A stretch of 64,000 nt of DNA, taken from IMG/VR virus record IMGVR_UViG_3300034062_000589; one strand, written 5' to 3'. Below are positions 7,660 to 26,130 of the stretch, piece by piece (positions within the stretch are counted from its first letter, which is position 1; the number at the start of each line of letters is the position of its first letter). Position numbers and translations under genes: made by a program. Origin of the DNA: an uncultured virus (IMG/VR IMGVR_UViG_3300034062_000589) (taxonomy: Duplodnaviria > Heunggongvirae > Uroviricota > Caudoviricetes). The notes below the pieces were generated by a model. That model made no database searches. It was given only the letters and a program-made list of their open reading frames with translations, and was not told the origin of the DNA.

Positions 7660-8011
7660 GAAAAAATATACCCCCCGTGGGGTCGCGAAATAAAAAGTGA
7701 CGTGGGGGGTCTCGCAGATGAAGTAAAAATAAACGTAGTCTAGAAAGCGAAGGGGGTGGGGGTAATGTTGCTAATTTAGTAATAGAGTTGTGAAGTGAAG
7801 TATCGGTTGTGCAAACTAGTGTGTATGTAGCTGGTAGGAGTCTCAAGCTGTACAGTCGGGTGGTGGGGGTGTCGTTGCCAGTTTGATACTAACAATGTTA
7901 GGCTTATTTTCGCTTACAAAAAACAATGCGAATTTAATCTAATCGTGTTACATTTAAATCACTGAAACGGCGCAACATTGTTTCGGTACTCTTAACTACT
8001 TAACTCTAAGG

Positions 8012-8578
8012 ATGATCAAAATGGAAAACGTCAAGAATGTAAGCACCGCCCCCGCCCCTGTCGCAGTAGCAATTCCGCTGAGCGTGATCGAAGCACGCAA
8101 CGCTCTCGTCAAGGCTGAGACTAAATCGTACGGCGCGCGCATCACTTACGCTGTCGAGTTGAATAGCATGGCCGGTTCCGCTTGGTATCGTGACGGCGCG
8201 GAAAAGGTTGTCAGCATCGAGGCGGAGAAAGCTAACCTGTACGCGGCATTGAAGAAAGTTGGGCATAGTAACCCGTCGAAGGTATGGGGCGACATTAAGA
8301 AATACGCATTGATTGATGCGCAGGAAAAGGGTTTATTCGGCGAGACTAAGCCCGTCGATGGCGAAGGCGAAGGCGAAGGCGAATCAACCGGCGGAGCAAA
8401 TGCAAATGCACCGCGCCCGCTGCAGCTTCGCTTAGTCGAGGAATTGACTGCTCTTTATAAAGTGTGTGACAAGGAAAAAGCGTTTCTTACTGATCAGCAA
8501 AAGGCAGCATCGCTCTGCATCACGAAAGCGCTGGAATCGTTGGGCGTTAATCTCGGCCTGATCAAAACCGGCAAATAA
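8012..8578 (+). CDS. First gene of the early arm, unknown function
   Basis: 188 aa ORF with TAAGGA RBS, followed by a GAAA-loop hairpin. Confidence 0.8.
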   Translation: MIKMENVKNVSTAPAPVAVAIPLSVIEARNALVKAETKSYGARITYAVELNSMAGSAWYRDGAEKVVSIEAEKANLYAALKKVGHSNPSKVWGDIKKYALIDAQEKGLFGETKPVDGEGEGEGESTGGANANAPRPLQLRLVEELTALYKVCDKEKAFLTDQQKAASLCITKALESLGVNLGLIKTGK

Positions 8579-8585
8579 TCAACGA

Positions 8586-8603
8586 GCGGGGCGAAAGCCC
8601 CGC
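8586..8603 (+). other. GC-rich hairpin GCGGGGC-GAAA-GCCCCGC
   Basis: 7-bp stem with GNRA loop and no U-tract; abuts the palindrome copy at 8604. Confidence 0.6.
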
Positions 8604-8624
8604 CTAACAATGTTAGGTTATCAA

Positions 8625-8708
8625 ATGAAAAACTACGGATTTGAAATTCTCGCCACAATCTACTGCGCCGTGATGCTGTACTGCGCCGTCCTGATGATGA
8701 TTATTTAA
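8625..8708 (+). CDS. 27-aa hydrophobic peptide
   Basis: MKNYGFEILATIYCAVMLYCAVLMMII; below the ORF-track cutoff. Confidence 0.5.
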   Translation: MKNYGFEILATIYCAVMLYCAVLMMII

Positions 8709-8726: not shown

Positions 8727-8750
8727 AGCCCCGCTTCGGCGGGGTTTTTT
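8727..8750 (+). terminator. Rho-independent terminator
   Basis: AGCCCCGC-TTCG-GCGGGGTT followed by TTTT; overlaps a 15-bp tandem duplication TTAACCCAGCCCCGC (8705-8734). Confidence 0.85.
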
Positions 8751-8754: not shown

Positions 8755-9111
8755 TTAGTCGCCCCAATCTTCCGCAGCTTTTTGCATATCCACTTTGATC
8801 GACGGTTTTATTGGTGATAGTTCTCGGGGTCGCTCGGTGGTCTGGTTTTTATCACGTAGCCAAGATTCGCGGGCCTCACGGTCTACCTCGGCATCAAGTG
8901 CAGCTTGCTCAGCAGGTGATAGTTTTCGGGGTCGCTCGGTGGTGCTAACAATGTTAGGCGTGGGCTTCGCAGCGGGTATGTTGTTGCGTTCTGCGTAGTC
9001 AAGCAGCGCTAAGCGTACAATCGCGGACACTGAAATTTCCCTGCTTTTTGCGTAGTCGGCGATTCGCTGGTGTAACGATGCGGAAAGCTCAATAGTTACC
9101 TTAGTTTTCAT
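8755..9111 (-). CDS. Ribbon-helix-helix (CopG/Arc-like) DNA-binding protein
   Basis: N-terminal KTKVTIELSASLHQRIADYAKSREISVSAIVRLALLDY has the beta-alpha-alpha RHH pattern; GAGG RBS. Confidence 0.75.
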   Translation of the reverse strand: MKTKVTIELSASLHQRIADYAKSREISVSAIVRLALLDYAERNNIPAAKPTPNIVSTTERPRKLSPAEQAALDAEVDREARESWLRDKNQTTERPRELSPIKPSIKVDMQKAAEDWGD

Positions 9112-9542: not shown

Positions 9543-9571
9543 TTGACTTGCCCACTTATTTGTGTTATAAT
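9543..9571 (+). promoter_or_regulatory. Sigma70 early promoter
   Basis: TTGACT-17 bp-TATAAT with extended -10 TG. Confidence 0.8.
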
Positions 9572-9627
9572 TAAAAGAAAACAGTGTGATAAACCAAAAC
9601 CTAACAATGTTAGACACGGAGCGAACG

Positions 9628-9798: not shown

Positions 9799-10039
9799 GT
9801 ACTGGAGTGTGTCTGACGAGGATGCCGAGTTCACTAAACACCTTATACGCCACTTCATACTTGCAAAAAAGCTAGGCATAGCACCACACACATCCAAAGC
9901 CGACCTAGCCAAGCTCAACGGTATATGGCATGGCCGAGACGACGATGATGTGGCGCAAGCCGAGTACAAGCGGATATGGATGCGAGTAGAGGACGAGATC
10001 AAGGAGACTAACAATGTTAGGGAGGTATCAAATGACTAA
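9791..10039 (+). CDS. Hypothetical protein
   Basis: GGAG RBS, coupled ORF. Confidence 0.65.
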   Translation: MAKYWSVSDEDAEFTKHLIRHFILAKKLGIAPHTSKADLAKLNGIWHGRDDDDVAQAEYKRIWMRVEDEIKETNNVREVSND

Positions 10040-10259
10040 CGAAGATGCAAGATACTTGTGCGTGGTCTGTGGTGGCTTTATTGCTCACGCTAGGTACAAA
10101 CTAGGCTATAAAACGTGCTTGCAGTGCGGTGAAGCGGCGGCGGGAGCCGAGAAAAAAAGGAAGGCTAGTATGGTGCAAATCCCATACAGCAAGGGCGCGT
10201 ACCAGTACATCTACAACCCCGCAGACCTGTTCCACACCAACCCAAAGAGGACGACATGA
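10032..10259 (+). CDS. C4 zinc-finger protein (DksA/TraR-like finger)
   Basis: CVVCGGFIAHAR...TCLQC; GGAGG RBS. Confidence 0.65.
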   Translation: MTNEDARYLCVVCGGFIAHARYKLGYKTCLQCGEAAAGAEKKRKASMVQIPYSKGAYQYIYNPADLFHTNPKRTT

Positions 10260-10423
10260 AGCTATTTGAAGTGGAGTTAAAGCGCACGTCCTACGTAGTT
10301 ATCCGGATTGAAGCGGGGAATAAAGAGCAAGCCGAGGAGCTTGCGTGGGCTGAGCTTGCATCAGACGGGTCATACGGCGAGAGCTATGCTGACTGGGAAC
10401 TTGAATCAATCGAGGAGACCTAA
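10256..10423 (+). CDS. 55-aa acidic protein
   Basis: MKLFEVELKRTSYVVIRIEAGNKEQAEELAW...; ATGA overlap with the previous gene; stop codon lies inside a palindrome copy. Confidence 0.7.
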   Translation: MKLFEVELKRTSYVVIRIEAGNKEQAEELAWAELASDGSYGESYADWELESIEET

Positions 10424-10425
10424 CA

Positions 10426-10779
10426 ATGTTAGTTTGGAAAGAGGTGTACGGATGGAACGACTGGGCATGGGAGCCGCGCATAACCAATGAGACCAGCACA
10501 TCACTAAACTTTGTTGTGGCTTACCGGCAGAGTACTGAGAACGACGTGGCTGAGTGCACACATGAGGATAACGTGCCGGATAACTACGACATCCACTACC
10601 CACTCTATTGGCGCGTGGTCTACATAGCCCAACCGCAGCCCGACGACTTCTTCTTAATAATGGAGTACGACGAGCAGGAACTACGTGAGATGCTGGAGAT
10701 GAAGGTCAAGGTGCTTGGGCTTGAGGAGCTAGGCATCGAACGACTGAGAAGTATGGACGCCTTAAAAAGGGAGACCTAA
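10426..10779 (+). CDS. Hypothetical protein
   Basis: Starts inside one palindrome copy and stops inside the next; GAGGAG RBS. Confidence 0.7.
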   Translation: MLVWKEVYGWNDWAWEPRITNETSTSLNFVVAYRQSTENDVAECTHEDNVPDNYDIHYPLYWRVVYIAQPQPDDFFLIMEYDEQELREMLEMKVKVLGLEELGIERLRSMDALKRET

Positions 10780-10781
10780 CA

Positions 10782-11027
10782 ATGTTAGAACACAGACCGA
10801 GAACCAAACATGCCGTAACCAAGGACGGCTACAAGATCAGACGTGCGGCGTACAGCGCGGCGGCGGAGCATAGCCACAAGCTTCAATGCAGCCTGTTCGG
10901 CAAGAAGTACGAGCCAGTGCCGGAGATACGCAAGCGGCTGGATGCGCACTTAACTACGCACACAGTAAACAAAATGAAACACGAGATAGACGAGCTAAAC
11001 AAAGAGGAGAAGGAGGGTGGCGCATGA
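10782..11027 (+). CDS. Hypothetical protein
   Basis: Start inside a palindrome copy; GGAG RBS. Confidence 0.65.
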   Translation: MLEHRPRTKHAVTKDGYKIRRAAYSAAAEHSHKLQCSLFGKKYEPVPEIRKRLDAHLTTHTVNKMKHEIDELNKEEKEGGA

Positions 11028-11269
11028 CCGACGAGGACGAGGCCAGAGTGCGGAAGATCATAGACCGCGAGGTGCAAGCACTGATGCTGAAGGTGGAGTT
11101 CGAGCATGACGAGTCTGATATGTCGTTCGCTGGGGATATGCACTGGCACTACCCAAGAGCATACAAGCGCATCAGCGACGAGGTGTTGGCTAAGTACAAC
11201 CTAACCCGGAAGCGGCGAGACGAGCTGATACAACAGAGAGAGGGTGGAAAATGGACATGGACGATGTGA
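11024..11269 (+). CDS. Hypothetical protein
   Basis: AAGGAGG RBS and ATGA overlap give the start MTDEDEAR. Confidence 0.65.
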   Translation: MTDEDEARVRKIIDREVQALMLKVEFEHDESDMSFAGDMHWHYPRAYKRISDEVLAKYNLTRKRRDELIQQREGGKWTWTM

Positions 11270-11334
11270 CAGGGATCATCTGCGGTGTCACGCTGGTGGT
11301 GGTATTGGTACTTACTTATTTGGAGGTGGTATGA
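11251..11334 (+). CDS. 27-aa membrane peptide
   Basis: MDMDDVTGIICGVTLVVVLVLTYLEVV; ATGA overlap with the next gene. Confidence 0.5.
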   Translation: MDMDDVTGIICGVTLVVVLVLTYLEVV

Positions 11335-11552
11335 GCGACATAACATTGTTAGGTGCATTGGCTGCGGGGCTAGGGATGTATTGCCTGTACTTGCAGATAC
11401 GCGTGAAGATGCTAAACGACGCGGGGAAGTTCATGACCGAGCTACTTATCAAAACGGTGCAGGAGCATACCAACAAGTCCGAGCGTGAGGCGGCAGAAGA
11501 AGTACGGCGCATGACAATAGCCCATGCTAAACAATACGTAGCAAAACATTAA
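11331..11552 (+). CDS. Small protein with N-terminal TM helix
   Basis: GGAGG RBS; ITLLGALAAGLGMYCLYL. Confidence 0.65.
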   Translation: MSDITLLGALAAGLGMYCLYLQIRVKMLNDAGKFMTELLIKTVQEHTNKSEREAAEEVRRMTIAHAKQYVAKH

Positions 11553-11566
11553 CTAAGGAGAACGAC

Positions 11567-11779
11567 ATGCCATACGTTGAAGTAAATCTGGACGAGTTTG
11601 ATATTGAGGACGTAGTGGAGCACGTGGAGGCTAGAGGCTTCAAGGTAATCGAAGGCAGTGCAACTGAGGACAATGCCGAGCTTGAGCGCATCTGGGCGGC
11701 GATGAGACTGGGTCAGAACGAGCAAGCGATGGAGCTGATGCAGCTTTATGTGTGTGACAAGTTAGGGAGAGTGCTATGA
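11567..11779 (+). CDS. Hypothetical protein
   Basis: TAAGGAG RBS; acidic 70 aa. Confidence 0.7.
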   Translation: MPYVEVNLDEFDIEDVVEHVEARGFKVIEGSATEDNAELERIWAAMRLGQNEQAMELMQLYVCDKLGRVL

Positions 11780-12126
11780 AAACAAGCGAGCTAAGGGGAA
11801 CAGCACTGGACTGGGCGGTGGCTAAGTGTGAGGGGTTGAATACGTATATCGAGGTGGTAGAGGGGTTCAAACCATCAACCGACTGGGCACTGGGCGGGCC
11901 GATCATTGAGCGGGAGAGGCTTCAACTTTCGCCGGGGTTAGCGCATGACGAGCATAGGTGGAGTGCAGTGCGGTATGACTACCTGTTCGACGACGACCTT
12001 GATTGTTTTATGGGCGGAGCAACCCCACTCATCGCAGCCATGCGTTGCTACGTGGCAAGCAAACTAGGCAATGAAGTGCAGATACCGGAGGAACTAAGTG
12101 CGCACGCTACCCCGCCAGAGGGTTGA
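11776..12126 (+). CDS. NinX/DUF2591-family protein
   Basis: ELRGTALDWAVAK...PSTDWALGGPIIERE...PLIAAMRCYV. Confidence 0.8.
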   Translation: MKTSELRGTALDWAVAKCEGLNTYIEVVEGFKPSTDWALGGPIIERERLQLSPGLAHDEHRWSAVRYDYLFDDDLDCFMGGATPLIAAMRCYVASKLGNEVQIPEELSAHATPPEG

Positions 12127-12151: not shown

Positions 12152-12170
12152 ATGTATAAATGGAGGAAGT

Positions 12171-12434
12171 ATGACTAATGACGAGGCCGATACGTTCATG
12201 CAGCAGTGCATGGCGTTGGACGACGCGATGAACGAAATGATGGAGGGTCAGGACTTAACCGTGTGCATCGCTGTCCTAACAAAGTTAGTCGGTGAGGTTA
12301 TATACGACGTGCAAGACGGCCAGACCAGCAAGGAAGAAGCCACGGACTTGATACGCAAGGCCATGACATCCATCACTATGGCGTACGAGGTGTGCCGTGG
12401 CGTGGGTTCCGACGATGGAGAATTCCTTCACTAA
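12171..12434 (+). CDS. Hypothetical acidic protein
   Basis: GGAGG RBS directly after the promoter. Confidence 0.7.
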   Translation: MTNDEADTFMQQCMALDDAMNEMMEGQDLTVCIAVLTKLVGEVIYDVQDGQTSKEEATDLIRKAMTSITMAYEVCRGVGSDDGEFLH

Positions 12435-12513: not shown

Positions 12514-13578
12514 ATGTCAGAGATCAACTTTGGTAAGACAGTCACGCTGGCACAAGCTGCCAACATCATCACGCGCACACCGATGAACCGCTACCTGCTT
12601 GAAGGTGAGCCCGGCATCGGCAAGTCAACACTTATCCAAGCAATCGCAGCCAAGCTGCCCACACATGAGGTGGCGTACATCGACGTGCCGAACATGGACT
12701 TGGGCGACATCGCCATGCCTGTCATTGACCACGAGACCCGCACCACTAAGTACTACCCGAATGCCCGCTTCAAGTTCCAGACCGGCAAGCCAGTCATCGT
12801 GATGCTCGACGAGTACACCAAGGGTGCGCAGCCAGTTAAGAACATGCTACATCCACTGCTTGAGGTTACTAACCCACGACTAGGCGACATGCCCATCCAC
12901 CCTGACTCTATTATCTTTTTGACAGGTAATCTCAGCACGGACGGCGTAGGCGACCAGCTACCAGCACACAGCCGCAACCGCATCATCCCATTACAAGTGC
13001 GCAAGCCAGACGCTGACGAGTGGATCAGTTGGGCTATCGACAACGAGGTATCAGCAGAGGTCATTGCTTGGGCTAAGGCATACCCACATGCGTTCGCGTC
13101 GTACACCGACGGCGGTCAGGCTGAGAACCCGTACGTCTTCAACCCACGCAAGCAACAGAAGGGCTTCGTCTCAGGCCGTTCGCTGGAACGTGTATCTAAC
13201 ATTGTTAGGATTCGCAAAGAATTGGATAGCGACACACTGATCGCAGCCATGAGCGGTGCGGTGGGCGAGGCGGCAGCGCGTGACATCCAAGCGTATATCG
13301 ACTTCGCAGACCAGCTACCTACGTGGGAGCAGACAATCAAACAGCCGATGACGGCACCCATCCCTAACTCTGCGGGTGCTTGCGCAATCATTGTGTACGG
13401 CGCTATCGCTAAGGTGGATAAGACAACCATCGCGCCATTCATGGAGTACCTGTCCCGCTTCGACCCAGAGTGGCAAGCCGTGTTCGCTATCAACATCGCA
13501 CGTAGTAACAAGCAGAGCGTGGCGTTCAGCGCGAAGGCATTCAGCGACTGGGTGAGTCGTAACGAGGACTTGCTGTAA
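12514..13578 (+). CDS. AAA+ ATPase (MoxR/dynein-related)
   Basis: Walker A GEPGIGKS, Walker B VMLDE, LTGN sensor, SRNR, SGRS; start 12499 or 12514. Confidence 0.9.
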   Translation: MSEINFGKTVTLAQAANIITRTPMNRYLLEGEPGIGKSTLIQAIAAKLPTHEVAYIDVPNMDLGDIAMPVIDHETRTTKYYPNARFKFQTGKPVIVMLDEYTKGAQPVKNMLHPLLEVTNPRLGDMPIHPDSIIFLTGNLSTDGVGDQLPAHSRNRIIPLQVRKPDADEWISWAIDNEVSAEVIAWAKAYPHAFASYTDGGQAENPYVFNPRKQQKGFVSGRSLERVSNIVRIRKELDSDTLIAAMSGAVGEAAARDIQAYIDFADQLPTWEQTIKQPMTAPIPNSAGACAIIVYGAIAKVDKTTIAPFMEYLSRFDPEWQAVFAINIARSNKQSVAFSAKAFSDWVSRNEDLL

Positions 13579-13590
13579 GGGAGACTAACA

Positions 13591-13797
13591 ATGTTAGATG
13601 AGCATGTGTACTACTTTGCGTGGGCTGAGGAGGATAACACCGGTCATAGTTATTTCGACGGTCGGCATGCTAAGTGGTACCGAGTGTTTAAGGCAGAAGG
13701 GAGAGGTATACCCGTAACCGAACCGATGAGCAGAGACGAGGCTATTGCGTACTGCAAACGCATAGTCAAACTAACAGGAGGGAGAGAGCTAACATGA
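13591..13797 (+). CDS. Hypothetical protein
   Basis: Start inside a palindrome copy; sits between the AAA and VWA genes. Confidence 0.65.
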   Translation: MLDEHVYYFAWAEEDNTGHSYFDGRHAKWYRVFKAEGRGIPVTEPMSRDEAIAYCKRIVKLTGGRELT

Positions 13798-14972
13798 GCG
13801 AACCAAAAGACAAGGAAGAGCGCAAGCTTAAGAAGGTCAAGATCGCACTGATGCGTAACCCGCTATTTGCGCTGTATCAAGGCGTGATGATGGTGGGCAA
13901 GACGACACTGCGCGATGACATACCGACAGCCGCAACCAATGGGCGTGATGAGATATACGGGCGGCAGTTCATCAAGGAGCTAAGCGAGAAGGAGCTTGCC
14001 TTCGTGGTGATGCACGAGTGTATGCACAAAACATACAGGCACTTAACTACGTGGACGAAGCTACATGCAGAGCATCCGATGCTAACCAATGCAGCGTGTG
14101 ACTACGTGATTAACCTAAAACTTCGAGACATCGACCCGGAGGGTAAGTACATCGCGATGCCAATGAAGGACGGTAAGCCATTCGGTTTGATCGACGAGAA
14201 GTATCGCGGCATGAATACCAAGCAAGTCTTCGATGCGCTAAAGCAGGACGGTATGGGTGGTGGTGAAGGGTTCGACGAGCATGACTGGGATGGTGCGGAG
14301 GAGATGACCGACGAGCAGAAGGAGGAGCTAGTCAAGGAGATCGACCGCGCTATACGTCAAGGCCAGATCGCAGCCAAGAAGGTAGGTAAGGGTGCGGGTG
14401 GGCGTGACCTTGAGCTTGAAGGACTAATGGAACCCAAGGTGGACTGGCGCGAGGTGCTGCGTGAGTTCGTCAAATCAATATGTAATGCAAAGGATGCTTC
14501 ATCATGGAGACGAGTAAATCGCCGGTTCGTCGGCAGCGACATCTACTTACCAACACTTATCGGGGAACGGGTAGGGCACATAGTGATCGGCATCGACACA
14601 AGTGGGTCCATCGGGGGCAAGGAGTTAAGCGACTTCCTATCTGAGGTGAAGGGTATCGCTGATGAGGTGCGACCAGAGAAGGTGGACTTGTTGTACTGGG
14701 ACTGTGAGGTGGCAGCGCATGAAGAATACGATGAGTACAGCGTGGCTAACATTGTTAGCAGTACGAAGCCACGTGGCGGTGGTGGTACGAGCCCTTCATG
14801 TGTCACTGCTTATCTTAAGGATAAAAATATCAAGCCCGAGTGTGTGGTGGTCCTCACAGACGGTTACGTCGGTGATGATTGGGGTGGAGACTGGCCGTGT
14901 CCGGTTCTCTGGACTATCGTGGATGGGAACAGTGACGTTGCACCAGTTGGCAAAACTATTCACATTAACTAA
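13794..14972 (+). CDS. Metallopeptidase plus VWA domain protein (DUF2201-like)
   Basis: TAATNG, HECMH (HExxH), N.ACDYVIN; MIDAS DTSGS, GGGT, TDGY. Confidence 0.9.
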   Translation: MSEPKDKEERKLKKVKIALMRNPLFALYQGVMMVGKTTLRDDIPTAATNGRDEIYGRQFIKELSEKELAFVVMHECMHKTYRHLTTWTKLHAEHPMLTNAACDYVINLKLRDIDPEGKYIAMPMKDGKPFGLIDEKYRGMNTKQVFDALKQDGMGGGEGFDEHDWDGAEEMTDEQKEELVKEIDRAIRQGQIAAKKVGKGAGGRDLELEGLMEPKVDWREVLREFVKSICNAKDASSWRRVNRRFVGSDIYLPTLIGERVGHIVIGIDTSGSIGGKELSDFLSEVKGIADEVRPEKVDLLYWDCEVAAHEEYDEYSVANIVSSTKPRGGGGTSPSCVTAYLKDKNIKPECVVVLTDGYVGDDWGGDWPCPVLWTIVDGNSDVAPVGKTIHIN

Positions 14973-15443: not shown

Positions 15444-15444
15444 C

Positions 15445-16305
15445 ATGGGTATCTCATCAAGCGCAGTACTGGTAGAGCTGAACGTATCGGTCTGGGGTGC
15501 AAGCAAGGTTGACCGCGATGCAACGGACGACGTGAACATCCGCAACAACGCAACACGTGACGCATCCAAGGTCTACAAGAACCTGACCGCAGGTACACAT
15601 CTGCGTAAGGACATCAGCGACTACGCTGCGAAGATTCGCCAGTTTCACAACCGACAGACTTTACCGTGGACGCACAAGGGCGCACGACTTTTGCCTACTT
15701 CCCACGTACTAGAGTACAAGCAACAAATGAATGCGATGGAGCAGCAGTTCAATGCACTGTTGCATAAGTTTTACTATGAGTACCCTAACATTGTTAGCCA
15801 AGCGCAGACTAACTTGCGCAGTATGTTCAAGGCTGATGACTACCCTACGCTTGAGGAAGTGCGTGAGAAGTTTGGATACAAGCTGGTGTTCTCTCCCCTA
15901 CCCGAAGCGGGGGACTTCCGTCTGGACGTAGCTAACGAAGAGCTGCGGGAACTATCACTCTCTTACGAAGCGGACTTCAATGAGCGTCTGGGCAAAGCTA
16001 TGCGTGAGCCATGGGAACGACTGCATGAAACGTTGACGCACCTGAGCACTAAGCTGACCGATGCGCAGGATGGCAGTGAGGAAGTTAAGCGCCGTTACCA
16101 CGACAGTCTGGTGACCAACGCGCAAGGGCTGTGTGAGCTGCTGACTAAGTTGAACATTACGAAAGACCCTAAGCTTGAGGAAGCACGTCGCAGTCTTGAG
16201 CTAACAATGTTAGGTGTGGATATTGACTCCATCAAAGAGTCACCCGAGGTGCGACATAGCGTCAAGTCTAAGGTGGATGAGATTCTTGGCAAGTTTGACT
16301 GGTGA
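15445..16305 (+). CDS. DUF3150-like coiled-coil protein
   Basis: TLPW..GARLLP and DYPTLEEVREKF motifs of the family that accompanies AAA/VWA clusters. Confidence 0.6.
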   Translation: MGISSSAVLVELNVSVWGASKVDRDATDDVNIRNNATRDASKVYKNLTAGTHLRKDISDYAAKIRQFHNRQTLPWTHKGARLLPTSHVLEYKQQMNAMEQQFNALLHKFYYEYPNIVSQAQTNLRSMFKADDYPTLEEVREKFGYKLVFSPLPEAGDFRLDVANEELRELSLSYEADFNERLGKAMREPWERLHETLTHLSTKLTDAQDGSEEVKRRYHDSLVTNAQGLCELLTKLNITKDPKLEEARRSLELTMLGVDIDSIKESPEVRHSVKSKVDEILGKFDW

Positions 16306-17101: not shown

Positions 17102-18079
17102 ATGTACGGAGGACTGAGGAATACGGGTATCTACCCGATACGTGACTACGCTGCTGCTGTGGATAAGTGGGATAACACAGTGCCTATCCGTGGACGCAAA
17201 GATGACGAGCGACCATTGGGTAAGCGGAGCAAGTCTTACATGCAGATACGCAAGCACTCTAATGGGGACGTGGCGTGTGTGCTGTACAAGACCGAGGTGG
17301 TTACGTTCCATCCCGACAACACGATAACACTGCACGTGCCAGAACAGTGGCAGACCAACACAACCGCTACATTTATTACAGCAGTGCTAGGTTGGAACCG
17401 CGTGTCGTCGGGTGTTAAAGATGGCAACGTGATCTTAGCTTTGCGTGGGGACAATAACTATGCGCGACTTAGTACTAATACTAAGCTGGGTATAAAGGAA
17501 GCAGGGAATCTAACTTTGTTAGGTGGCAATCTGGTGAACATTGTCTATACTATTAACCGCAAAAAGATGAACGCTGCACGGGCTAAGGTATCTAAGCTCC
17601 GTAAGTATCTGGCCGGTGTGCTAAAGCTACGCGACGGTGTGTTCGACTCGGATGAATCGGTTGAGCTAGACGCGTTCTTTGCGCGGCATGGGATGGGTTA
17701 TGTGGCATCTGGGGATTTGAATGCGTGGCGCGGTAAGTTGCAGTGGTCGCTTGAGTTGCCTAAAAACATGTGGTACTTCAAAGATGTGAACCGCAAGGTG
17801 TGGCTTGAGCAAGCTAAGAAGTTCGTAGAGATAGCTGAGAAGTGCGATGACGAGGATGTGTACGGCTTGACGCTGTGGCTTGTACTGTCTGGTATTAACT
17901 TTGGTAGCCGCACAAGCATACGTGCAACAGAGGAAGCACTGAACATTAAGCTTACTGACTTACTTATCATGACGCACCCTGATGTGCTGGAAGGTACACC
18001 CGAGCCGCGAGGTGAGATCAAGGTAAACCGATACAAGCACTATGTGAACTTACTGAGTGCTTTGGAAGGGGGAGAATGA
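17102..18079 (+). CDS. Hypothetical protein
   Basis: 325 aa ORF filling the operon. Confidence 0.8.
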   Translation: MYGGLRNTGIYPIRDYAAAVDKWDNTVPIRGRKDDERPLGKRSKSYMQIRKHSNGDVACVLYKTEVVTFHPDNTITLHVPEQWQTNTTATFITAVLGWNRVSSGVKDGNVILALRGDNNYARLSTNTKLGIKEAGNLTLLGGNLVNIVYTINRKKMNAARAKVSKLRKYLAGVLKLRDGVFDSDESVELDAFFARHGMGYVASGDLNAWRGKLQWSLELPKNMWYFKDVNRKVWLEQAKKFVEIAEKCDDEDVYGLTLWLVLSGINFGSRTSIRATEEALNIKLTDLLIMTHPDVLEGTPEPRGEIKVNRYKHYVNLLSALEGGE

Positions 18080-19065: not shown

Positions 19066-19967
19066 CACAAGTATGTTTCACTGATGCGGGGTTTCCCCCT
19101 AACATTGTTATATCGGTCGGGATAGACCAATGGCGCACCAATGTATTTACAGCAGACGATGTGGTGTTTGGTGAATTGTCCTCGCAAGTAATACCAGTGG
19201 TGGCAAGGATGTTCCCGGCGTGGCAGTTTGTTGTAACCACTGTCCACATGGAAGGGCCGGGTGTTAAACGCAAGGTCTACCCAACATGGATAACGGTATC
19301 GGAGAAAGGTGTTAGTCGGGGCAAGATAAACATCAGGCACCCATGGCGGTATAGCGAGGACTTGGTGTTCGAGAACCCGCGTATCCACAGAGCTATGCAG
19401 CGGAAAGGGCGCAAGACCACAACCAAACCGAGCGTAGCGATACAGATTGTTAAGCAGTACTTTACAGACCCGCCCATTACAGAAACTATAGAGGTTGTAA
19501 CTAGGCAGATGAGGGTAAACGCAAACCAACATAAGGTTACGTTTGGTGCGATGAGAGACCTAGAGTACATGAAGCTTGTAGGGCTAGTGCAATCTTACGT
19601 TGAGGAAAACTTACTAGAGATTGCAAAGCAAGTGCCCGCAGTGAACACTAACTTCGACTTGCCCGCGTATTTAAATCTTGTTGAGGATACAAAAATATCG
19701 GTGTCTGTGATGGACGTTCCGACCAATTCTGCGTTGACAGTCATGCTGCACGGTGATAAATATGTGTTACAGAGAAGTAATATGCCGATCTTTGCGCTGA
19801 CCTCAGAGCACTTACCGGAGCAGGTTCGTATGGCGGTAGGGTTACTCAAGCTAATAGAGGACGGTCAGTTCGTGCGTGACGTAGGGTACAGGCACAAGGC
19901 AGATCAATTCTTAGTTGTTTACGGTGGGCCATTTGACGAGGAGATAGCATGCAAAACTTTAAATTAA
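19062..19967 (+). CDS. Hypothetical protein
   Basis: 301 aa, coupled. Confidence 0.8.
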   Translation: MTQVCFTDAGFPPNIVISVGIDQWRTNVFTADDVVFGELSSQVIPVVARMFPAWQFVVTTVHMEGPGVKRKVYPTWITVSEKGVSRGKINIRHPWRYSEDLVFENPRIHRAMQRKGRKTTTKPSVAIQIVKQYFTDPPITETIEVVTRQMRVNANQHKVTFGAMRDLEYMKLVGLVQSYVEENLLEIAKQVPAVNTNFDLPAYLNLVEDTKISVSVMDVPTNSALTVMLHGDKYVLQRSNMPIFALTSEHLPEQVRMAVGLLKLIEDGQFVRDVGYRHKADQFLVVYGGPFDEEIACKTLN

Positions 19968-21125: not shown

Positions 21126-21313
21126 AGGCGGCTGAAGCTATGGCTGTGGCTTTCGCTATGTGCGTGGCGTTGTTCTCCATTTACTTTGGTACGAAGGCTG
21201 TGACGATGGAGCCGGGAGCACGAAGGCCGCTATGTGGCGTGGCTGAGATTAGCCCTGACATTACGCCGGAAGAACGTAAGAATTGCAGAGAGATGAGGAG
21301 ACGTTCTCTATGA
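21122..21313 (+). CDS. Small membrane/secreted protein
   Basis: N-terminal TM helix; C..AEISPD.......C. Confidence 0.6.
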   Translation: MKAAEAMAVAFAMCVALFSIYFGTKAVTMEPGARRPLCGVAEISPDITPEERKNCREMRRRSL

Positions 21314-21519
21314 CAGAACAGAAAGTAAGACGGGGGCGTGGACCCGGCAAGCAACCACGACAAGGCATCACGAGCGTGCGCATACCAGTGTACGTTCTTG
21401 ATTATTACCGTCAGAACTTCGACAACAGCACAGCAAAGATGCGCGAGGTTCTGGTTAACTATGCAGTAGATAAAGGAGCTAACAATGGTAAAGAAAGTGA
21501 AGAAGGTATTGAGTCCTGA
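21310..21519 (+). CDS. BrnA-like ribbon-helix-helix protein
   Basis: RGRGPGK...TSVRIPVYVLDYYR...MREVL. Confidence 0.55.
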   Translation: MTEQKVRRGRGPGKQPRQGITSVRIPVYVLDYYRQNFDNSTAKMREVLVNYAVDKGANNGKESEEGIES

Positions 21520-21979
21520 AGCGTTGGAAACTTTACGACGCACCGCAGCATACGCACGACAGGTTCGTCAGGAGAAACGCAAAGAGCGAGAGCTACGGGG
21601 TGAGGCGCATCCATACACACCGCCTAAGCGTAGAAAGAAGAGAACACCTACGACTAAGCAACAAGTCTTGAAGTGGGATGAGATCAAGATGCCGATACAG
21701 CAAACTATGAAGATGGTGCAAGCGGTTACAAGCGGTAAGTCTGTTCTGTACGCGGACATCCCTCAAGTTACACACTACGCTGCGGCTGACATGGTTAACA
21801 ACCCTGCGCATTACAAAGTAGGCGGTATCGAGACTATCGACTTCATCGAGGCTAAAGGTCTGTCGTATAACTTGGGCAATGTGGTTAAGTACGTGACTCG
21901 TGCCGGGCACAAAGGCAACCGTAAGGAAGACCTTGAGAAAGCACGTTGGTATCTAACCCGAGAGATCGAAGCATCGTAA
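21485..21979 (+). CDS. DUF3310 (T7 gp1.7/SaV-like) domain protein
   Basis: DMVNNPAHY..GGIETIDFI...GNVVKYVTRAGHKG...EDLEKARWYL. Confidence 0.9.
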   Translation: MVKKVKKVLSPEALETLRRTAAYARQVRQEKRKERELRGEAHPYTPPKRRKKRTPTTKQQVLKWDEIKMPIQQTMKMVQAVTSGKSVLYADIPQVTHYAAADMVNNPAHYKVGGIETIDFIEAKGLSYNLGNVVKYVTRAGHKGNRKEDLEKARWYLTREIEAS

Positions 21980-21988: not shown

Positions 21989-22285
21989 ATGTCTGGTACG
22001 CCTGAGAGTAAGGTCAAGTTGGCTGTCGTTAAATTGCTTAAGCAATACGGCGTGTATTTCTTTTTCCCCGCAACTCACGGGTACGGACGCTCAGGTGTGC
22101 CAGACATCATCTGTTGTATCGACGGTAAGTTTTTAGCTATCGAGTGTAAGGCTGGAAAGAACGAGCCCACCGCACTGCAACTACGAGAAATAAATCAAAT
22201 ACAAGCAGCGGGTGGTATGGCAATGGTAGTCAGAGAAGACCTAACATTGTTAGAATTTTTATTGAAGGAGCTAACGCATGAGTGA
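21989..22285 (+). CDS. VRR-NUC domain nuclease
   Basis: PE..VK, GVPDII, AIECK, PTALQ. Confidence 0.9.
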   Translation: MSGTPESKVKLAVVKLLKQYGVYFFFPATHGYGRSGVPDIICCIDGKFLAIECKAGKNEPTALQLREINQIQAAGGMAMVVREDLTLLEFLLKELTHE

Positions 22286-24565: not shown

Positions 24566-24567
24566 GT

Positions 24568-25240
24568 GATCCCAGCATGGTCCTACAGCAGCATCAAAAC
24601 CTTCGACCAATGCCCGAAGAAGTACCATCATCTGCGCATACTAAAGGACTTCAAAGATGAGGATTCGACTGCAACGATCTACGGCAAGGAGCTTCACAAA
24701 GCGGCGGAAGACTTTATCGCCTTGGGCACGCCTATACCCCCTCGTTTCTCTTTCATTAGCGAAACGCTTGCGGCACTTAAAAAGATTGAGGGTGAGAAAC
24801 ACTGCGAAATTAAACTTGGTATCGCCAAGAGGGATGGTAAGTTCGCGCCTTGTGACTTCTTTGCAAAGGACGTGTGGTGGCGGGGCATTGCCGACCTTCT
24901 TATCATTAACGAAGAGAAGCAAACCGCGTATCTGGTGGACTACAAGACCAGTAAGAATGCAAAGTACGCCGACACCAAACAGCTAGACCTACTGGCAGGT
25001 GCAGTCTTTACGCACTACCCAAAGATCATGGAGATCAAGTCTGCGTTGTTGTTTGTAGTTAGCAACGAGATGGTAAAGAAGAAGCACGAGTTCATGATGC
25101 AGACTTCGTACTTGAACTCTATGCAGCCGGAGCTGTCCCGATTAGAAGCAGCAATAAAGACGAACGTGTGGAACCCAGTGTCTAGCCCACTGTGTAAGTT
25201 CTGCCCCGTCTCAAGTTGCGCACACAATAGGAGAAGTTGA
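24568..25240 (+). CDS. PD-(D/E)XK (Cas4/RecB-like) nuclease
   Basis: WSYSS...CP, G..LH, GIAD, DYKT, QL, C..CP...C; exact start uncertain (near 24566-24568). Confidence 0.85.
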
Positions 25241-25620
25241 TGACTGAAGCTGAAGCACAAAAGTGTATCGACCTAGTACTTAAAGAATACCCCGGCTTAA
25301 CTGCAAACGGGTTTGAGTATGAGAGTAGATACCGCTACCCAGATGACTATGTACATGGGCCTATTTCACCCGAGGGGTTTATTACTGTAGTCGAGTGGCT
25401 ACTGAACTACGATGCGCTTGACCGTAGGAAAACCATCAACACCAGCAGAGGTAGCTACGGGTGGAAGCACGTAGTGGAGCGAGACACTAAGCAGTACATA
25501 AGTAACGGGGACTTTATCTGCGGCGCTTTATATCTGAAATACAATATGAAACGTATGCACCGTTCACCCAATGCTTATTTTAATTTAAGGAAGGAAACAT
25601 CCCATGCCATACGTAAATAA
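25237..25620 (+). CDS. Hypothetical protein (SYGxKH motif)
   Basis: SYGWKHVVER...YISNGDFI. Confidence 0.7.
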   Translation: MMTEAEAQKCIDLVLKEYPGLTANGFEYESRYRYPDDYVHGPISPEGFITVVEWLLNYDALDRRKTINTSRGSYGWKHVVERDTKQYISNGDFICGALYLKYNMKRMHRSPNAYFNLRKETSHAIRK

Positions 25621-25897
25621 GCCGCGCCCATACAAAAAAGAATACGAAGAGTATCAGGGCACACCAGAGCAGATTAAGAAACGCGCTACGCGCAATGCAG
25701 CCCGCGCCAAGCTGATGAAGGAAGGCAAAGTCAGCAAGGGCGATGGTAAAGACGTTGCACACACTAAGGCGTTGTCTAAGGGTGGCAGCAACTCAACAGG
25801 ACTCAAGGTAGAGAGTGCTGGCGCTAACCGGTCTTTCTTGCGTGGGTCTGATCGTGGTCTGAAGTCTGAGGTTAGTAAGCGTGAGCGGAAGAAGTGA
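25604..25897 (+). CDS. HNH-like small basic protein
   Basis: RNAAR...GDGKDVAH.KALSKGGSN...NRS. Confidence 0.7.
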   Translation: MPYVNKPRPYKKEYEEYQGTPEQIKKRATRNAARAKLMKEGKVSKGDGKDVAHTKALSKGGSNSTGLKVESAGANRSFLRGSDRGLKSEVSKRERKK

Positions 25898-26130
25898 AAA
25901 TAAAGCATTACCCTGCGGGTGGAGGAGAGCCTGTAGATATTGAGATGTCTACGGAGGAGGCCCGCATGATCTGGCTAACAATGTTAGGTTCTGATTGGGT
26001 GGATGAAGATGTGATTATGGATGCGCCTTCTGGTTCTCCGCTTGATACGGCTTCGATGATTTTAGACTACGAAGCTTTAATTGACTTCGACTACTACCAA
26101 AACAAAATAAAACTCAGATGCAAATCGTAG
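25894..26130 (+). CDS. Hypothetical protein
   Basis: GTGA overlap; contains a palindrome copy. Confidence 0.6.
   Translation: MKIKHYPAGGGEPVDIEMSTEEARMIWLTMLGSDWVDEDVIMDAPSGSPLDTASMILDYEALIDFDYYQNKIKLRCKS

What the first reader, a model, noticed from the sequence alone, without database searches (positions are those of the whole stretch)
7889..25987. A 13-bp palindrome (CTAACAWTGTTAG) marks only the early arm: candidate DNA-domain marking system
Seen: 14 perfect copies (7889, 8604, 8945, 9601, 10008, 10420, 10776, 13196, 13585, 14746, 15785, 16201, 22241, 25975) and 4 single-mismatch copies (11340, 12276, 17510, 19099). A uniform-base estimate gives about 0.002 copies per 64 kb. Twelve perfect copies lie in 7.9-16.2 kb and then thin out; I saw none in the structural arm. 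Many are deep inside genes and in different frames (LTMLG, xNIVS/R, TNNVR, LTLLE), so selection acts on the DNA. Most are not at promoters, unlike classical operators. Established analogues: mycobacteriophage L5 stoperators, and MatP/matS (GTGACRNYGTCAC, also a 13-bp palindrome, 9/13 positions compatible). Inference: a dimeric protein coats this arm to silence, organise, protect or help internalise it. Candidates are the RHH at 8755-9111, the BrnA-like RHH at 21310, gene 8012, an ejected virion protein, or a host factor.
Basis: partly seen in the sequence, partly recalled or inferred. Interest (0 to 1): 0.88.

Follow-up and report, generated by a model that had tools for sequence, protein, structure and literature searches.

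The report
Palindrome array marks phage early arm
A 13-base palindrome is kept at roughly 10 to 25 fairly evenly spread places across only the early-gene arm of a large family of lake phages, even inside genes, and it travels with two phage proteins (one a small DNA-binding type), so it is probably the control sites for switching that whole arm.

Summary
The window holds 14 perfect, 4 one-mismatch and 1 two-mismatch copies of CTAACAWTGTTAG, all in 7889-25987, against 0 expected. It is a conserved trait: 82 of 92 related phage contigs carry such arrays, and in 5 of 5 complete relatives every perfect copy lies in one 9-11 kb block at the head of the early arm. In-gene copies sit at orthologous codons and are held at the nucleotide level. 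The mismatch spectrum is strand-symmetric with no wobble changes, and the flanks show no compensatory pairing. This favours two-fold reading of duplex DNA over a stem-loop.

The BrnA-like RHH at 21310 does: it was found in 64 of 64 array-bearing contigs covering its region, and is armless, degenerate or absent in 4 of 4 motif-less contigs. The gene-8012 family shows the same pattern (38 of 38 against 0 of 6). Both patterns rest on essentially one evolutionary contrast.

Best reading (about 0.4): an operator array for the RHH, encoded near the distal end of the array, that shuts the early arm. Binding and function are untested. It is a new variant of phage multi-operator arrays.

The parts
7889..7901 (.). 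perfect copy; divergent intergenic region, 123 nt upstream of ORF 8012
   Evidence: It lies in the spacer of a weak promoter-like site, TTGATA-16-TATTTT at 7883-7910. The equivalent copy in relatives lies just upstream of the -35 of a strong sigma70-type promoter.
8012..8578 (+). gene-8012 family protein; first gene of the arm; two helical modules joined by an acidic Gly/Glu linker; function unknown
   Evidence: Found in 38 of 38 array-bearing contigs that cover the head of the arm and in 0 of 6 motif-less ones. AF2 model has mean pLDDT 81 and is all-helical. No fold or family match.
8604..8616 (.). perfect copy; intergenic, abutting the terminator-like hairpin after gene 8012
   Evidence: hairpin 8585-8604.
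8945..8957 (.). perfect copy inside the minus-strand RHH-like ORF 8755-9111
9543..9571 (+). strong sigma70-type promoter (TTGACT-17-TATAAT, TG before the -10)
   Evidence: 11 of 12 matches, the best in the region.
9601..9613 (.). perfect copy in the 5' leader, about +23 to +35 from the promoter at 9543-9571 and 15 nt before the ATG at 9628
10008..10020 (.). perfect copy; SD (AAGGAGA) then the central ATG, which starts ORF 10014-10259 (CxxC..CxxC zinc-finger protein)
10420..10432 (.). perfect copy; its TAA is the stop of ORF 10256-10423 and its ATG is the start of ORF 10426-10779
10776..10788 (.). perfect copy; its TAA is the stop of ORF 10426-10779 and its ATG is the start of ORF 10782-11027
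11340..11352 (.). one-mismatch copy (outer position A instead of C)
12276..12288 (.). one-mismatch copy (position 8)
13196..13208 (.). perfect copy inside the AAA ATPase gene (codons for S-N-I-V-R, aa 233)
   Evidence: The same position is occupied in 61 of 80 orthologues; codons are fixed while flanking synonymous sites vary.
13585..13597 (.). perfect copy; SD (AAGGGAGA) then the central ATG, which starts ORF 13591-13797
14746..14758 (.). perfect copy inside the DUF2201 (VWA/metallopeptidase-like) gene
15785..15797 (.). perfect copy inside ORF 15445-16305
16201..16213 (.). perfect copy inside ORF 15445-16305 (aa 253); about 55 of 69 orthologues carry a site at aa 249-255
17510..17522 (.). one-mismatch copy inside ORF 17102-18079
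19099..19111 (.). one-mismatch copy (outer position) inside ORF 19062-19967
21310..21519 (+). BrnA-like ribbon-helix-helix protein with a conserved basic N-terminal arm (K-[KR]-G-R-G-x-G-K-K-P-A); best candidate reader of the palindrome
   Evidence: Profile hit in 64 of 64 array-bearing contigs covering the region; armless, degenerate or absent in 4 of 4 motif-less ones. 7 of 23 family members match Pfam BrnA_antitoxin, best E 3.7e-07. The model shows an unstructured N-terminus followed by two helices. Median position is 0.90 of the way along the array.
21479..21491 (.). two-mismatch copy overlapping the 3' end of the RHH gene; its central ATG starts the DUF3310 gene (21485-21979)
22241..22253 (.). 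perfect copy in the 3' end of the Hjc-like nuclease ORF, 24 nt before the start of ORF 22278; conserved distal end of the array in relatives
25975..25987 (.). perfect copy inside ORF 25894-26130; outlier beyond the usual block

Best explanation
The palindromes are a dispersed set of duplex-DNA operators read with two-fold symmetry by a phage-encoded dimer, most likely the BrnA-like ribbon-helix-helix protein at 21310-21519. That gene lies about nine-tenths of the way along the array, so it is transcribed only after host RNA polymerase has crossed most of the early arm. The proposal is that its product then returns to occupy all copies: the one just upstream of the first early promoter, those in leaders and over start codons, and those inside long genes. 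It would shut the pre-replicative arm, by promoter looping and roadblock, while leaving the replication and late regions, which have no sites, untouched. The gene-8012 family protein, the first gene of the arm and bracketed by copies, is either the most tightly controlled target or a partner.

Shown: the sites exist; they are confined to the arm; they are conserved and held at the nucleotide level; their sequence constraints are symmetric; and they co-occur with the two proteins.

Inferred: who binds the sites, that binding represses, and the timing logic.
For: (1) Reality and confinement. 14 perfect copies against 0 expected. In 5 of 5 CheckV-complete relatives all perfect copies lie in one 9-11 kb block of a 63-67 kb genome. 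G001 is the same.

(2) Conservation. 66 of 80 related loci have 2-22 perfect copies and 11 more carry systematic variants. In total, 82 of 92 distinct contigs have arrays.

(3) Selection on nucleotides. The ATPase aa-233 site is occupied in 61 of 80 orthologues and a Walker-B site in 47 of 80. Motif-bearing orthologues use fixed codons (TCT AAC ATT GTT AGG), while flanking codons of identical residues vary (third-position entropy 1.0-1.9 bits). Motif-free orthologues encode the same peptide with other codons.

(4) Duplex, two-fold reading. The one-mismatch spectrum is strand-symmetric (C1>A 57 against G13>T 45). Inner positions have 0-4 variants each, and wobble-compatible changes are absent or rare. 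Flanking pairs -1/+1 and -2/+2 show no compensatory covariation (z 1.6 and 1.65; 531 sites). The centre base is A in 374 and T in 246 of 620 sites, and the excess of A is explained by copies that use ATG as a start. The first copy lies upstream of the -35 of the first early promoter, so it is not on the rightward transcript.

(5) The RHH. It was found in 64 of 64 array-bearing contigs that cover its region. Of the 4 motif-less contigs covering it, 2 have no RHH (G413, G414), 1 has an armless RHH (L080) and 1 has a degenerate arm (L115). Its family is BrnA/RHH. It sits at a conserved place at 0.90 of the array (IQR 0.85-0.95, n=62), often with a copy 7-250 bp upstream.

(6) Precedent. In passages read from PMC11826091, a small dimeric antitoxin-type protein (MtvA) binds the identical 11-bp core TAACATTGTTA in EMSA.

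(7) Geometry. In 8 loci two copies flank the first promoter, 112-131 bp apart, five of them at 112-116 bp. Spacing in the array is more even than random in 4 of 6 genomes (CV 0.40-0.59 against about 0.92, P<=0.012).
Against: No binding was tested.

The co-occurrence of the RHH and g8012 with the array amounts to essentially one evolutionary contrast. All 9 motif-less contigs fall on one side of one branch of the ATPase tree (quick tree, root unknown), plus the partial L069/L073 contrast.

The RHH beta-strand, which usually reads the bases, varies widely among phages with an identical motif (for example MVYFPLRVS, LVHLSLRIP, QGITSVRIP). I found no residue that tracks the motif variants (outer C/A/G, centre of 1-3 nt).

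The centre length varies by 1-2 bp, even within one genome (L004, L005, L033, L072). That is awkward for a rigid dimer and natural for a loop.

The window's own RHH does not reach any Pfam family by itself, and Foldseek gave no significant match.

Spacing is not more even than random in the window or in G003.

A motif-less clade exists, so the system is dispensable. Repression, as opposed to activation, protection or organisation, is inferred only from site positions.
Confidence: 0.4

Rival explanations
1. The gene-8012 family protein, alone or together with the RHH, is the reader of the palindrome. It is made first and marks or opens the arm early (for example by recruiting or protecting), and the RHH only modulates it.
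For: g8012-family genes are present in 38 of 38 array-bearing contigs covering the head of the arm and in 0 of 6 motif-less ones. Motif-poor L073 has replaced the segment holding this gene, and 2 of the 4 L069 sites that map into shared sequence carry point changes in L073. The gene is bracketed by copies upstream of its promoter, in its leader and after its terminator. Two modules on a flexible acidic linker could tolerate a 1-3 nt change in half-site spacing.
Against: No DNA-binding fold or family was recognised. Foldseek gave E>1 for every row. The best VIA Z was 6.6, within noise for helical bundles. Pfam gave nothing consistent in 14 members. Atlas leads scored below 0.9. The phyletic evidence is the same single contrast as for the RHH.
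Confidence: 0.15
2. The same duplex sites bind a protein whose purpose is not transcriptional: compaction or organisation of the first-entering DNA, protection from host nucleases, or help with internalisation.
For: Copies are fairly evenly spaced regardless of gene structure. They are confined to a block at the head of the arm. More than half lie inside ORFs, where classical operators are rare.
Against: The physical genome ends and the entry order are unknown; the direct-repeat ends reported for two relatives fall at arbitrary places relative to the block. The conserved positions around the first early promoter and in leaders point to transcription. No candidate virion protein with a DNA-binding domain was found.
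Confidence: 0.1
3. A host protein reads the sites. The phage either uses a host regulator or titrates it, acting as a decoy.
For: The TAACA core is invariant across phages whose proteins are only 62-86% identical, which would suit a conserved host reader. No phage protein was shown to bind. Neither the small HTH nor the sigma4-like proteins track the motif.
Against: The core is not enriched in the 401 bacterial genomes of one class that were sampled (0-12 per genome against 0-9 for the reversed control), though the host is unknown. Relatives change the outer base and the spacing in concert, and the array co-occurs with two phage genes. This is easier to explain with a phage-borne reader.
Confidence: 0.1
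4. The element acts as a stem-loop in RNA or single-stranded DNA (5-7 bp stem, 3-4 nt loop): an mRNA stabiliser, a translational operator, a processing site, or an antitermination or recruitment signal for early transcripts.
For: The centre can be 1, 2 or 3 nt (1030, 51 and 9 copies), with mixtures inside one genome, as loops tolerate. 71 of 644 sites have an ORF start at the central ATG and 168 have one 0-40 nt downstream (mechanical ORF starts), so many copies sit at ribosome-binding regions. The whole arm is transcribed in one direction.
Against: Flanks do not covary as pairs. The stem letters are invariant rather than covarying among copies, and no G-U type variants occur. The 5-bp stem is weak. 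The conserved first copy lies upstream of the first early promoter. The array co-occurs with a DNA-binding fold. The virion-RNA-polymerase promoter version has no support: the 1932-aa protein has no PDB sequence match to such an enzyme and only a partial PHROG hit.
Confidence: 0.1
5. The copies are recombination boundaries that promote cassette exchange among co-infecting relatives, like the promoter-stem-loop cassettes of T4-type phages (recalled).
For: Small early ORFs between copies are almost never shared between relatives, while the copies at their junctions are. Copies often supply the stop and the start of adjacent cassettes.
Against: This does not explain nucleotide-level maintenance of copies inside conserved core genes at orthologous positions, the even spacing, or the link to two proteins. 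A 13-bp identity is short for homologous exchange.
Confidence: 0.05

Closest known systems
Cluster O mycobacteriophage 17-bp dyad repeats (TGTTCGGNNNCCGAACA; PMC4351075, passages read)
   Same: More than 30 copies of an invariant short palindrome; no orientation bias of the centre; a mixture of intergenic, start-proximal and in-ORF copies (about one third in coding regions); denser toward one genome end; phages not obviously temperate; no known binder.
   Different: Different sequence and host phylum. Those repeats occur throughout the genome, whereas here they are strictly confined to one 9-18 kb block. Here there is codon-level evidence, family-wide variants of outer base and spacing, and two co-occurring candidate proteins. 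That paper states the function of the Cluster O repeats as unknown.
Cluster A mycobacteriophage stoperators (as described in PMC4351075, plus recall)
   Same: A 13-bp site repeated some tens of times, many away from promoters, proposed to stop transcription and silence a genome region through one repressor.
   Different: Stoperators are asymmetric and co-oriented with transcription, lie in both arms, and serve the immunity repressor of temperate phages. Here the site is a palindrome without orientation, lies in one arm only, and no integrase or prophage relatives were found.
MtvA antitoxin operator on Pseudomonas plasmid pPAD8 (PMC11826091, passages read)
   Same: The identical 11-bp palindromic core TAACATTGTTA is bound by a small dimeric antitoxin-type DNA-binding protein in EMSA, and mutating one half-site abolishes binding.
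   Different: It is a single autoregulatory operator, not an array. MtvA is described there as MazE-like, not RHH.
BrnA antitoxin family (Pfam PF14384), RHH autorepressors of type II toxin-antitoxin operons
   Same: 7 of 23 members of the phage RHH family match this Pfam family (best E 3.7e-07). They share a basic N-terminal segment, then strand-helix-helix.
   Different: No BrnT-like toxin neighbour was found. The presumed regulon is 10-25 dispersed sites rather than one operator.
Global multi-operator repressors of plasmids and Streptomyces phages (KorB with its 13-bp palindromic operators on IncP plasmids; the phiC31 c repressor with its dispersed conserved inverted repeats). Recalled, not read here.
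   Same: One protein and about a dozen or more copies of a short palindrome spread over a replicon or an early region, acting both near and far from promoters.
   Different: No ParB/KorB-type or phiC31-c-type protein was detected. The atlas hint to the phiC31 repressor domain for g8012 scored 0.81 and was not confirmed.
MatP/matS
   Same: A 13-bp palindrome that marks one chromosomal domain only and is often intragenic. By recall, the MatP DNA-binding region includes an RHH.
   Different: Different letters; no MatP-like protein seen; no chromosomal enrichment of the core in the 401 genomes sampled. The resemblance is formal.

Membership tests
Cluster A stoperators | Asymmetric site, co-oriented with transcription | tested here: not met
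   Perfect palindrome. Centre is A in 374 and T in 246 of 620 sites, with the A excess explained by start-codon copies. The mismatch spectrum is strand-symmetric.
Cluster A stoperators | Sites in both arms or throughout the genome | tested here: not met
   All perfect copies lie in one block in the window, in G001 and in 5 of 5 complete relatives.
Cluster A stoperators | Read by the immunity repressor of a temperate phage | tested here: inconclusive
   No integrase or CI-type family among the 89 ORFs scanned against PHROGs. No related prophage in the genome collection. Absence of lysogeny is not proven.
RHH (BrnA-type) repressor with palindromic operator | A ribbon-helix-helix protein of that family is encoded | tested here: met
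   7 of 23 family members hit PF14384 (best E 3.7e-07) and 1 hits RHH_1. The window's own copy scores nothing alone. The model shows an N-terminal segment plus two helices. The best PDB profile match has E=0.025 over helices 1-2.
RHH (BrnA-type) repressor with palindromic operator | Protein and site co-occur across genomes | tested here: met
   64 of 64 array-bearing contigs have the RHH. Of 4 motif-less contigs covering the region, none has an armed RHH. This is one contrast on the tree.
RHH (BrnA-type) repressor with palindromic operator | Protein binds the site | not testable with these tools
   Needs EMSA or DAP-seq, or a protein-DNA co-fold.
RHH (BrnA-type) repressor with palindromic operator | Cognate BrnT-type toxin gene adjacent | tested here: not met
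   The neighbours 21122-21313 and 21485-21979 have no such Pfam hit. It is an orphan antitoxin-like regulator.
The invariant core here is TAACA-W-TGTTA.
MatP/matS | MatP-type protein and a host chromosomal domain carrying the site | tested here: inconclusive
   No such Pfam hit in the 60 window proteins scanned. The core is not enriched in 401 sampled genomes of one class. The host is unknown.
ParB/parS or KorB/operator systems | ParB-family protein encoded | tested here: inconclusive
   None among the 60 proteins scanned with Pfam or the 89 scanned with PHROGs. Small or divergent ORFs could be missed.
N4-type virion RNA polymerase hairpin promoters | A virion RNA polymerase is encoded | tested here: inconclusive
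   The 1932-aa virion protein has only a partial PHROG hit (residues 734-991, E 3e-17) and no PDB sequence match at E<=1 other than an unrelated hydrolase.
N4-type virion RNA polymerase hairpin promoters | The element works as an extruded stem-loop | tested here: not met
   No compensatory covariation at flanking pairs. No orientation relative to transcription.
Cluster O-type dyad repeat arrays | Tens of invariant short palindromes; no orientation; mixed intergenic and coding placement; denser toward one end | tested here: met
   Searches compared with the passages. The sequences are unrelated, so this is likeness of kind, not homology.

The most novel reading that the evidence does not exclude
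A lytic-type phage family closes an entire chromosomal domain with a distance timer. A toxin-less BrnA-type RHH, encoded at the far end of a 10-18 kb early transcription unit, returns to occupy 10-25 evenly spaced palindromic operators. Many of these are written into coding sequence at the cost of codon and even residue choice (for example the Walker-B ITML). The first early protein (g8012 family) acts as its partner. This would be a self-contained, phage-borne equivalent of bacterial domain-marking or plasmid global-silencing systems. It might also explain the unexplained dyad-repeat arrays of other phages, such as Cluster O.
Probability: 0.25. Interest if true: 0.75.

Novelty: new variant of a known kind. 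Interest (0 to 1): 0.62.

Why it matters
Phages that depend on host RNA polymerase throughout infection must still turn off their early genes, and how most uncultured phages do so is unknown. This family is abundant in lake metagenomes: 283 relatives in IMG/VR, and DNA runs from 22 studies hold part or all of the stretch. It keeps a dense, evenly spaced operator-like array confined to the pre-replicative arm. The array is strong enough to fix codons and one residue inside conserved enzymes. If the RHH binds, this would be a clear case of an antitoxin-type RHH acting as a domain-wide regulator, and a model for similar unexplained repeat arrays in other phages.

Tried and rejected
- The RHH at 8755-9111, the GerE-type HTH at 20137-20397 and the winged HTH at 18076-18369 as binders: homologues in only 1, 2 and 2 of 80 loci. 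Rejected.
- The small HTH at 29310-29540: conserved in 5 of 5 complete relatives, but present with the same recognition helix in motif-less G009/L080 and unchanged across motif variants, and absent from motif-less G414. It does not track the motif.
- Sigma70-region-4.2-like mini-proteins (label from recall): found in 39 of 81 sequences (80 loci plus the window) and missing from many array-bearing loci. Rejected as a universal binder.
- ORF 10014: the CxxC..CxxC pattern looks like a DksA/TraR-type zinc finger by recall. No Pfam hit. Not pursued.
- Virion RNA polymerase promoter idea: see rivals.
- Host enrichment: 401 genomes of one class show no enrichment. The single genome-collection scan found only a Spiribacter ATPase-DUF2201 pair with no motif.
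- L063 against L066 as a paired comparison: too divergent to use.
- g8012 fold: Foldseek gave nothing at E<=0.001; VIA wide gave a best Z of 6.6; atlas leads to DUF3102 and to a Streptomyces-phage repressor domain scored 0.84 and 0.81 and were not confirmed by Pfam.
- RHH model against the PDB with Foldseek: no significant row.
- Complex prediction of an RHH dimer with g8012: no verdict. It counts neither for nor against.
- RNA evidence: no RNA holder listed among the public runs, so RNA ends could not be examined and no reads were laid.
- Megablast of both arms against 50,697 phage records: no match. The nearest named phage by TerL, DSL-LC04 (60% identity), has no copies in the 50 kb of its 61.5 kb record that I examined.
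- Literature: a full-text search for the 11- and 13-mers found no phage paper. A search on the nearest named phages listed 14 papers, which I did not open for repeats. A search for the phiC31 inverted repeats found no readable source.
- RHH residues that track motif variants: none found by eye.
- My regular expression for the arm flagged only 52 of 64. For 11 of the other 12 (L012, L023, L028, L029, L031, L041, L043, L048, L049, L056, L074) the arm is visible in the alignment; their ORFs have N-terminal extensions, so my search window missed it. The 12th, L050, is not shown as a separate row in that de-duplicated listing, so I did not see its arm.

Full report
**1. The observation**

In 100 dinucleotide-preserving shuffles it occurred 0 times. 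All 19 lie between 7889 and 25987.

The window has three parts:
- A minus-strand packaging block at 472-7846, holding the portal and the large terminase.
- A plus-strand arm at 8012-32505, holding small early ORFs, an AAA ATPase, a DUF2201 protein, several conserved unknowns, then PolA, an exonuclease, a helicase and a primase.
- A minus-strand structural and lysis arm at 32738-63952.

The motif therefore marks only the first part of the plus arm. Twelve of the 14 perfect copies lie in its first 8.3 kb.

**2. Placement in the window**

Three perfect copies are intergenic or next to promoters:
- 7889 is in the divergent region.
- 8604 follows the terminator-like hairpin after gene 8012.
- 9601 is at about +23 of the strongest sigma70-type promoter in the region, TTGACT-17-TATAAT at 9543-9571.

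Four copies overlap start codons, with a GGAG-type Shine-Dalgarno just upstream and the central ATG as the ORF start (10008, 10420, 10776, 13585). At 10420 and 10776 the motif's TAA also ends the upstream ORF. Seven copies are inside ORFs.

**3. A family trait**

Megablast found no close phage record. By large terminase the nearest named phages are only 48-60% identical: DSL-LC04, 023Pt_psg01, and the Pelagibacter phages HTVC027P and HTVC023P.

The ATPase in the middle of the block has 283 relatives in IMG/VR, and the best 80 loci were fetched with up to 10 kb on each side.
- 66 of the 80 loci carry 2-22 perfect copies.
- 11 of the other 14 carry systematic variants: GTAACAWTGTTAC, ATAACAWTGTTAT, 14-mers with an AA/TT or AATT centre, and in L063 a 3-nt centre.
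- One locus (L073) has three sites, and two (L066, L080) have none.

Over 1.17 Mb, TAACA-N-TGTTA occurs 1030 times with a 1-nt centre, 51 times with 2 nt and 9 times with 3 nt. Other spacings occur 0-4 times, and everted or direct arrangements are at background.

In 5 of 5 CheckV-complete relatives (63-67 kb), every perfect copy lies in one block of 9.0-11.2 kb. The nearest record to the window repeats the window's own pattern. In typical relatives the block runs from just after the divergent small-terminase-like gene to the gene before PolA.

**4. Selection on nucleotides**

In-gene copies sit at orthologous positions:
- ATPase residue 232-236 in 61 of 80 orthologues.
- A second ATPase site at the Walker-B stretch in 47 of 80. 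The window lacks this one.
- Residue 249-255 of ORF 15445 in about 55 of 69 orthologues.

At the ATPase site, motif-bearing orthologues all use TCT AAC ATT GTT AGG. Flanking codons for identical residues vary freely, with third-position entropy of 1.0-1.9 bits. The zero entropy within the motif is by construction, because I selected on the motif. Orthologues without the motif encode S-N-I-V-K with other codons.

At the Walker-B site the motif imposes ATA ACA ATG TTA (I-T-M-L) where motif-free orthologues have I-I-M-L or V-I-M-L. So the DNA requirement has shaped both codon choice and one residue.

**5. Duplex or stem-loop?**

Four results favour symmetric reading of duplex DNA:
- **Mismatch spectrum.** One-mismatch copies are almost confined to the outermost pair and are strand-symmetric (C1>A 57 against G13>T 45). 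The inner TAAC/GTTA letters have 0-4 variants each. Changes that would keep an RNA pair by wobble are absent or rare: A3>G, A4>G, A12>G and C5>T are all 0, and C1>T is 2.
- **Flanks.** The palindrome extends weakly outward, with C at -1 in 56% of copies, G at +1 in 62%, A at -2 in 46% and T at +2 in 41%. These are independent preferences. Complementary pairs are no more frequent than the marginals predict (z=1.6 and 1.65 in 531 sites; outer pairs at or below expectation).
- **Orientation.** The centre has no orientation once start-codon copies are set aside.
- **First copy.** Across relatives, the first copy lies just upstream of the -35 of a strong sigma70-type early promoter. In L034, for example, the motif is followed after 12 nt by TTGACA-17-TATAAT. 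That copy would not be on the rightward transcript.

One result points the other way. The centre can change by 1-2 nt, even within one genome (L004, L005, L033, L072).

**6. Geometry**

Within the blocks, spacing (mean 0.5-1.0 kb) is more even than random in 4 of 6 genomes: CV 0.40-0.59 against about 0.92, P<=0.012. It is not more even in G003 or in the window, whose block has a sparse tail.

In 8 loci two copies flank the first early promoter, 112-131 bp apart, and five of these are 112-116 bp apart. This would suit a repression loop, but that is an inference.

Across 644 distinct contexts, 71 copies have an ORF start at their central ATG and 168 have one 0-40 nt downstream. ORF starts here are mechanical calls.

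**7. Who reads it?**

Several candidates do not travel with the motif:
- The minus-strand RHH at 8755-9111, the GerE-type HTH and a winged HTH have homologues in 1, 2 and 2 of 80 loci.
- A conserved small HTH upstream of the primase is unchanged in motif-less L080 and across motif variants.
- Sigma4.2-like mini-proteins occur in only 39 of 81 sequences.
- No ParB, KorB, MatP or AbrB family was seen.
- The core is not enriched in the 401 bacterial genomes sampled from one class, and no related prophage was found.

Two proteins do travel with it.

- A profile HMM finds it in 63 of the first 81 sequences, and in 59 of the 59 that reach its region.
- In the final tally over 92 distinct contigs it is present in 64 of 64 array-bearing contigs that cover the region.
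- It has a conserved basic N-terminal arm, K-[KR]-G-R-G-x-G-K-K-P-A.
- 7 of 23 members match Pfam BrnA_antitoxin, best E 3.7e-07.
- The model shows the expected two helices after an unstructured N-terminus.

In the motif-less clade the RHH is in various states of decay:
- It is armless in L080, with an in-frame stop 8 codons upstream. The same holds in three further contigs of that lineage.
- It has a degenerate arm without G-R-G in L115.
- It is absent from G413 and G414. Both whole contigs (39 and 55.8 kb) have zero motif-like sites and no RHH profile hit even at E<=100, although Hjc, ORF 22278 and PolA are present.

**The gene-8012 family, the first gene of the arm.** With a profile built from a broad alignment, it is found in 38 of 38 array-bearing contigs that cover the head of the arm. 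It is found in 0 of 6 motif-less ones, and not in motif-poor L073.

**8. Weight of this evidence**

On an ATPase tree (the quick method, root unknown) all 9 motif-less contigs fall on one side of one branch with SH-aLRT 99. The co-occurrence is therefore essentially a single contrast.

Two things add a little weight:
- The different decay states of the RHH inside that clade.
- The pair L069/L073, which are 90-95% identical. L073 has replaced the segment with the 8012-like gene and three sites. Two of the four L069 sites that map into shared sequence carry point changes in L073, about the neutral expectation.

Against the RHH as reader: its beta-strand varies widely among phages with an identical motif, and I found no residue that tracks the motif variants. 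If the RHH reads the site, the invariant Arg and the conserved arm must do much of the work.

Against g8012 as reader: no DNA-binding fold or family was recognised. A complex prediction of the two proteins gave no verdict.

**9. Mechanism proposed**

The RHH gene lies at a median 0.90 of the way along the array (IQR 0.85-0.95, n=62: 61 loci plus the window). Typically 1-2 copies lie beyond it, and a copy often lies 7-250 bp upstream.

I therefore propose delayed negative feedback. Host polymerase starts at the early promoters and reaches the RHH gene only after crossing most of the arm. The RHH then occupies the copies around the first promoter, in leaders, over start codons and inside long genes, and closes the arm. 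The replication and late genes carry no sites.

This is inferred from anatomy. Activation, protection or organisation by the same binder is not excluded.

**10. Comparison with what is known**

- **Cluster O mycobacteriophages** are the closest published likeness. They have more than 30 invariant 17-bp dyad repeats with no orientation, about a third in coding regions, denser toward one end, in phages that are not obviously temperate, and with function unknown (passages read in PMC4351075).
- **Stoperators** differ in being asymmetric, co-oriented with transcription and tied to lysogeny.
- **MtvA.** A plasmid antitoxin-type protein binds the identical 11-bp core in vitro (passages read in PMC11826091).
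- **KorB operators, the phiC31 conserved inverted repeats and GalR-type loops** are cited from recall only.

I found no paper describing this motif or this array. The evidence for that is a full-text search of the 11- and 13-mers and a listing for the nearest named phages, whose papers I did not open for this point.

**Verdict**

This is a real, strongly selected feature conserved across the family. It is best filed as a new variant of phage multi-operator arrays, now with two concrete, testable candidate proteins.

Noticed in passing
window 7857-7872 and the same place in relatives (L021, L022, L023, L029, L031, L042, L045, L067): A conserved G-rich tract (GGGTGGTGGGGGT-like) lies immediately upstream of the first motif copy in the divergent region between the packaging genes and the early arm. 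Its role (terminus, late promoter or structure) is unknown.
   Followed up: no
L063 7388-7522: A tandem array of nine 15-bp units (GTATTGTAAGGTTTT), plus dispersed extra copies, lies in the early region of one relative. It looks like iterons and is separate from the palindrome.
   Followed up: no
window 10014-10259: A conserved 81-aa protein with a CxxC-x17-CxxC pattern, present in 5 of 5 complete relatives. By recall it resembles DksA/TraR-type zinc fingers that bind RNA polymerase. Its start codon is the centre of a motif copy.
   Followed up: partly
L006 5904-6074 and 38 other loci; window 20137-20397: Free-standing 57-aa proteins reading ...ISRERVRQIQ.RA.GKLR..., which by recall resembles sigma70 region 4.2, sit right after the ATPase gene in many relatives. 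The window instead has an 86-aa GerE-type HTH (Pfam E 3.8e-09).
   Followed up: partly
window 12499-16305; L106 (Spiribacter scaffold) 10001-12197: The AAA ATPase, the DUF2201 (VWA/metallopeptidase-like) protein and ORF 15445 form a conserved trio of unknown role that is kept even in motif-less relatives. The ATPase-DUF2201 pair also occurs in a bacterial chromosome at 43% identity.
   Followed up: no
window 32738-38536 (minus strand): A 1932-aa virion protein with a DarB-like C-terminal part (PHROG E 1.7e-87), an LPD39 domain and a partial hit to a virion-RNA-polymerase PHROG at residues 734-991. No PDB sequence match.
   Followed up: partly
window 8625-8708: A 27-aa hydrophobic ORF (MKNYGFEILATIYCAVMLYCAVLMMII) lies between gene 8012 and the minus-strand RHH-like gene. 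It is 93% conserved in one relative and flanked by terminator-like hairpins at 8585-8604 and 8727-8746.
   Followed up: no
G414 (fetched as L129), ORF immediately upstream of the Hjc-like gene: In a motif-less relative the place of the RHH is taken by ORFs that look like glycosyltransferases and methyltransferases by eye, plus a 122-aa ORF containing ...PRKRGRPAGSK..., which by recall is AT-hook-like.
   Followed up: no
window 28390-29310: A conserved 306-aa protein with a Cys-rich centre and an acidic C-terminal tail (…DWSDD), next to a Mu Gam-like gene. By recall this is typical of phage single-strand DNA-binding proteins.
   Followed up: no
window 12123-12151: A second good sigma70-type promoter-like site (TTGACT-17-TATACT with TG) lies inside the arm, about 125 nt upstream of the one-mismatch copy at 12276.
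   Followed up: no
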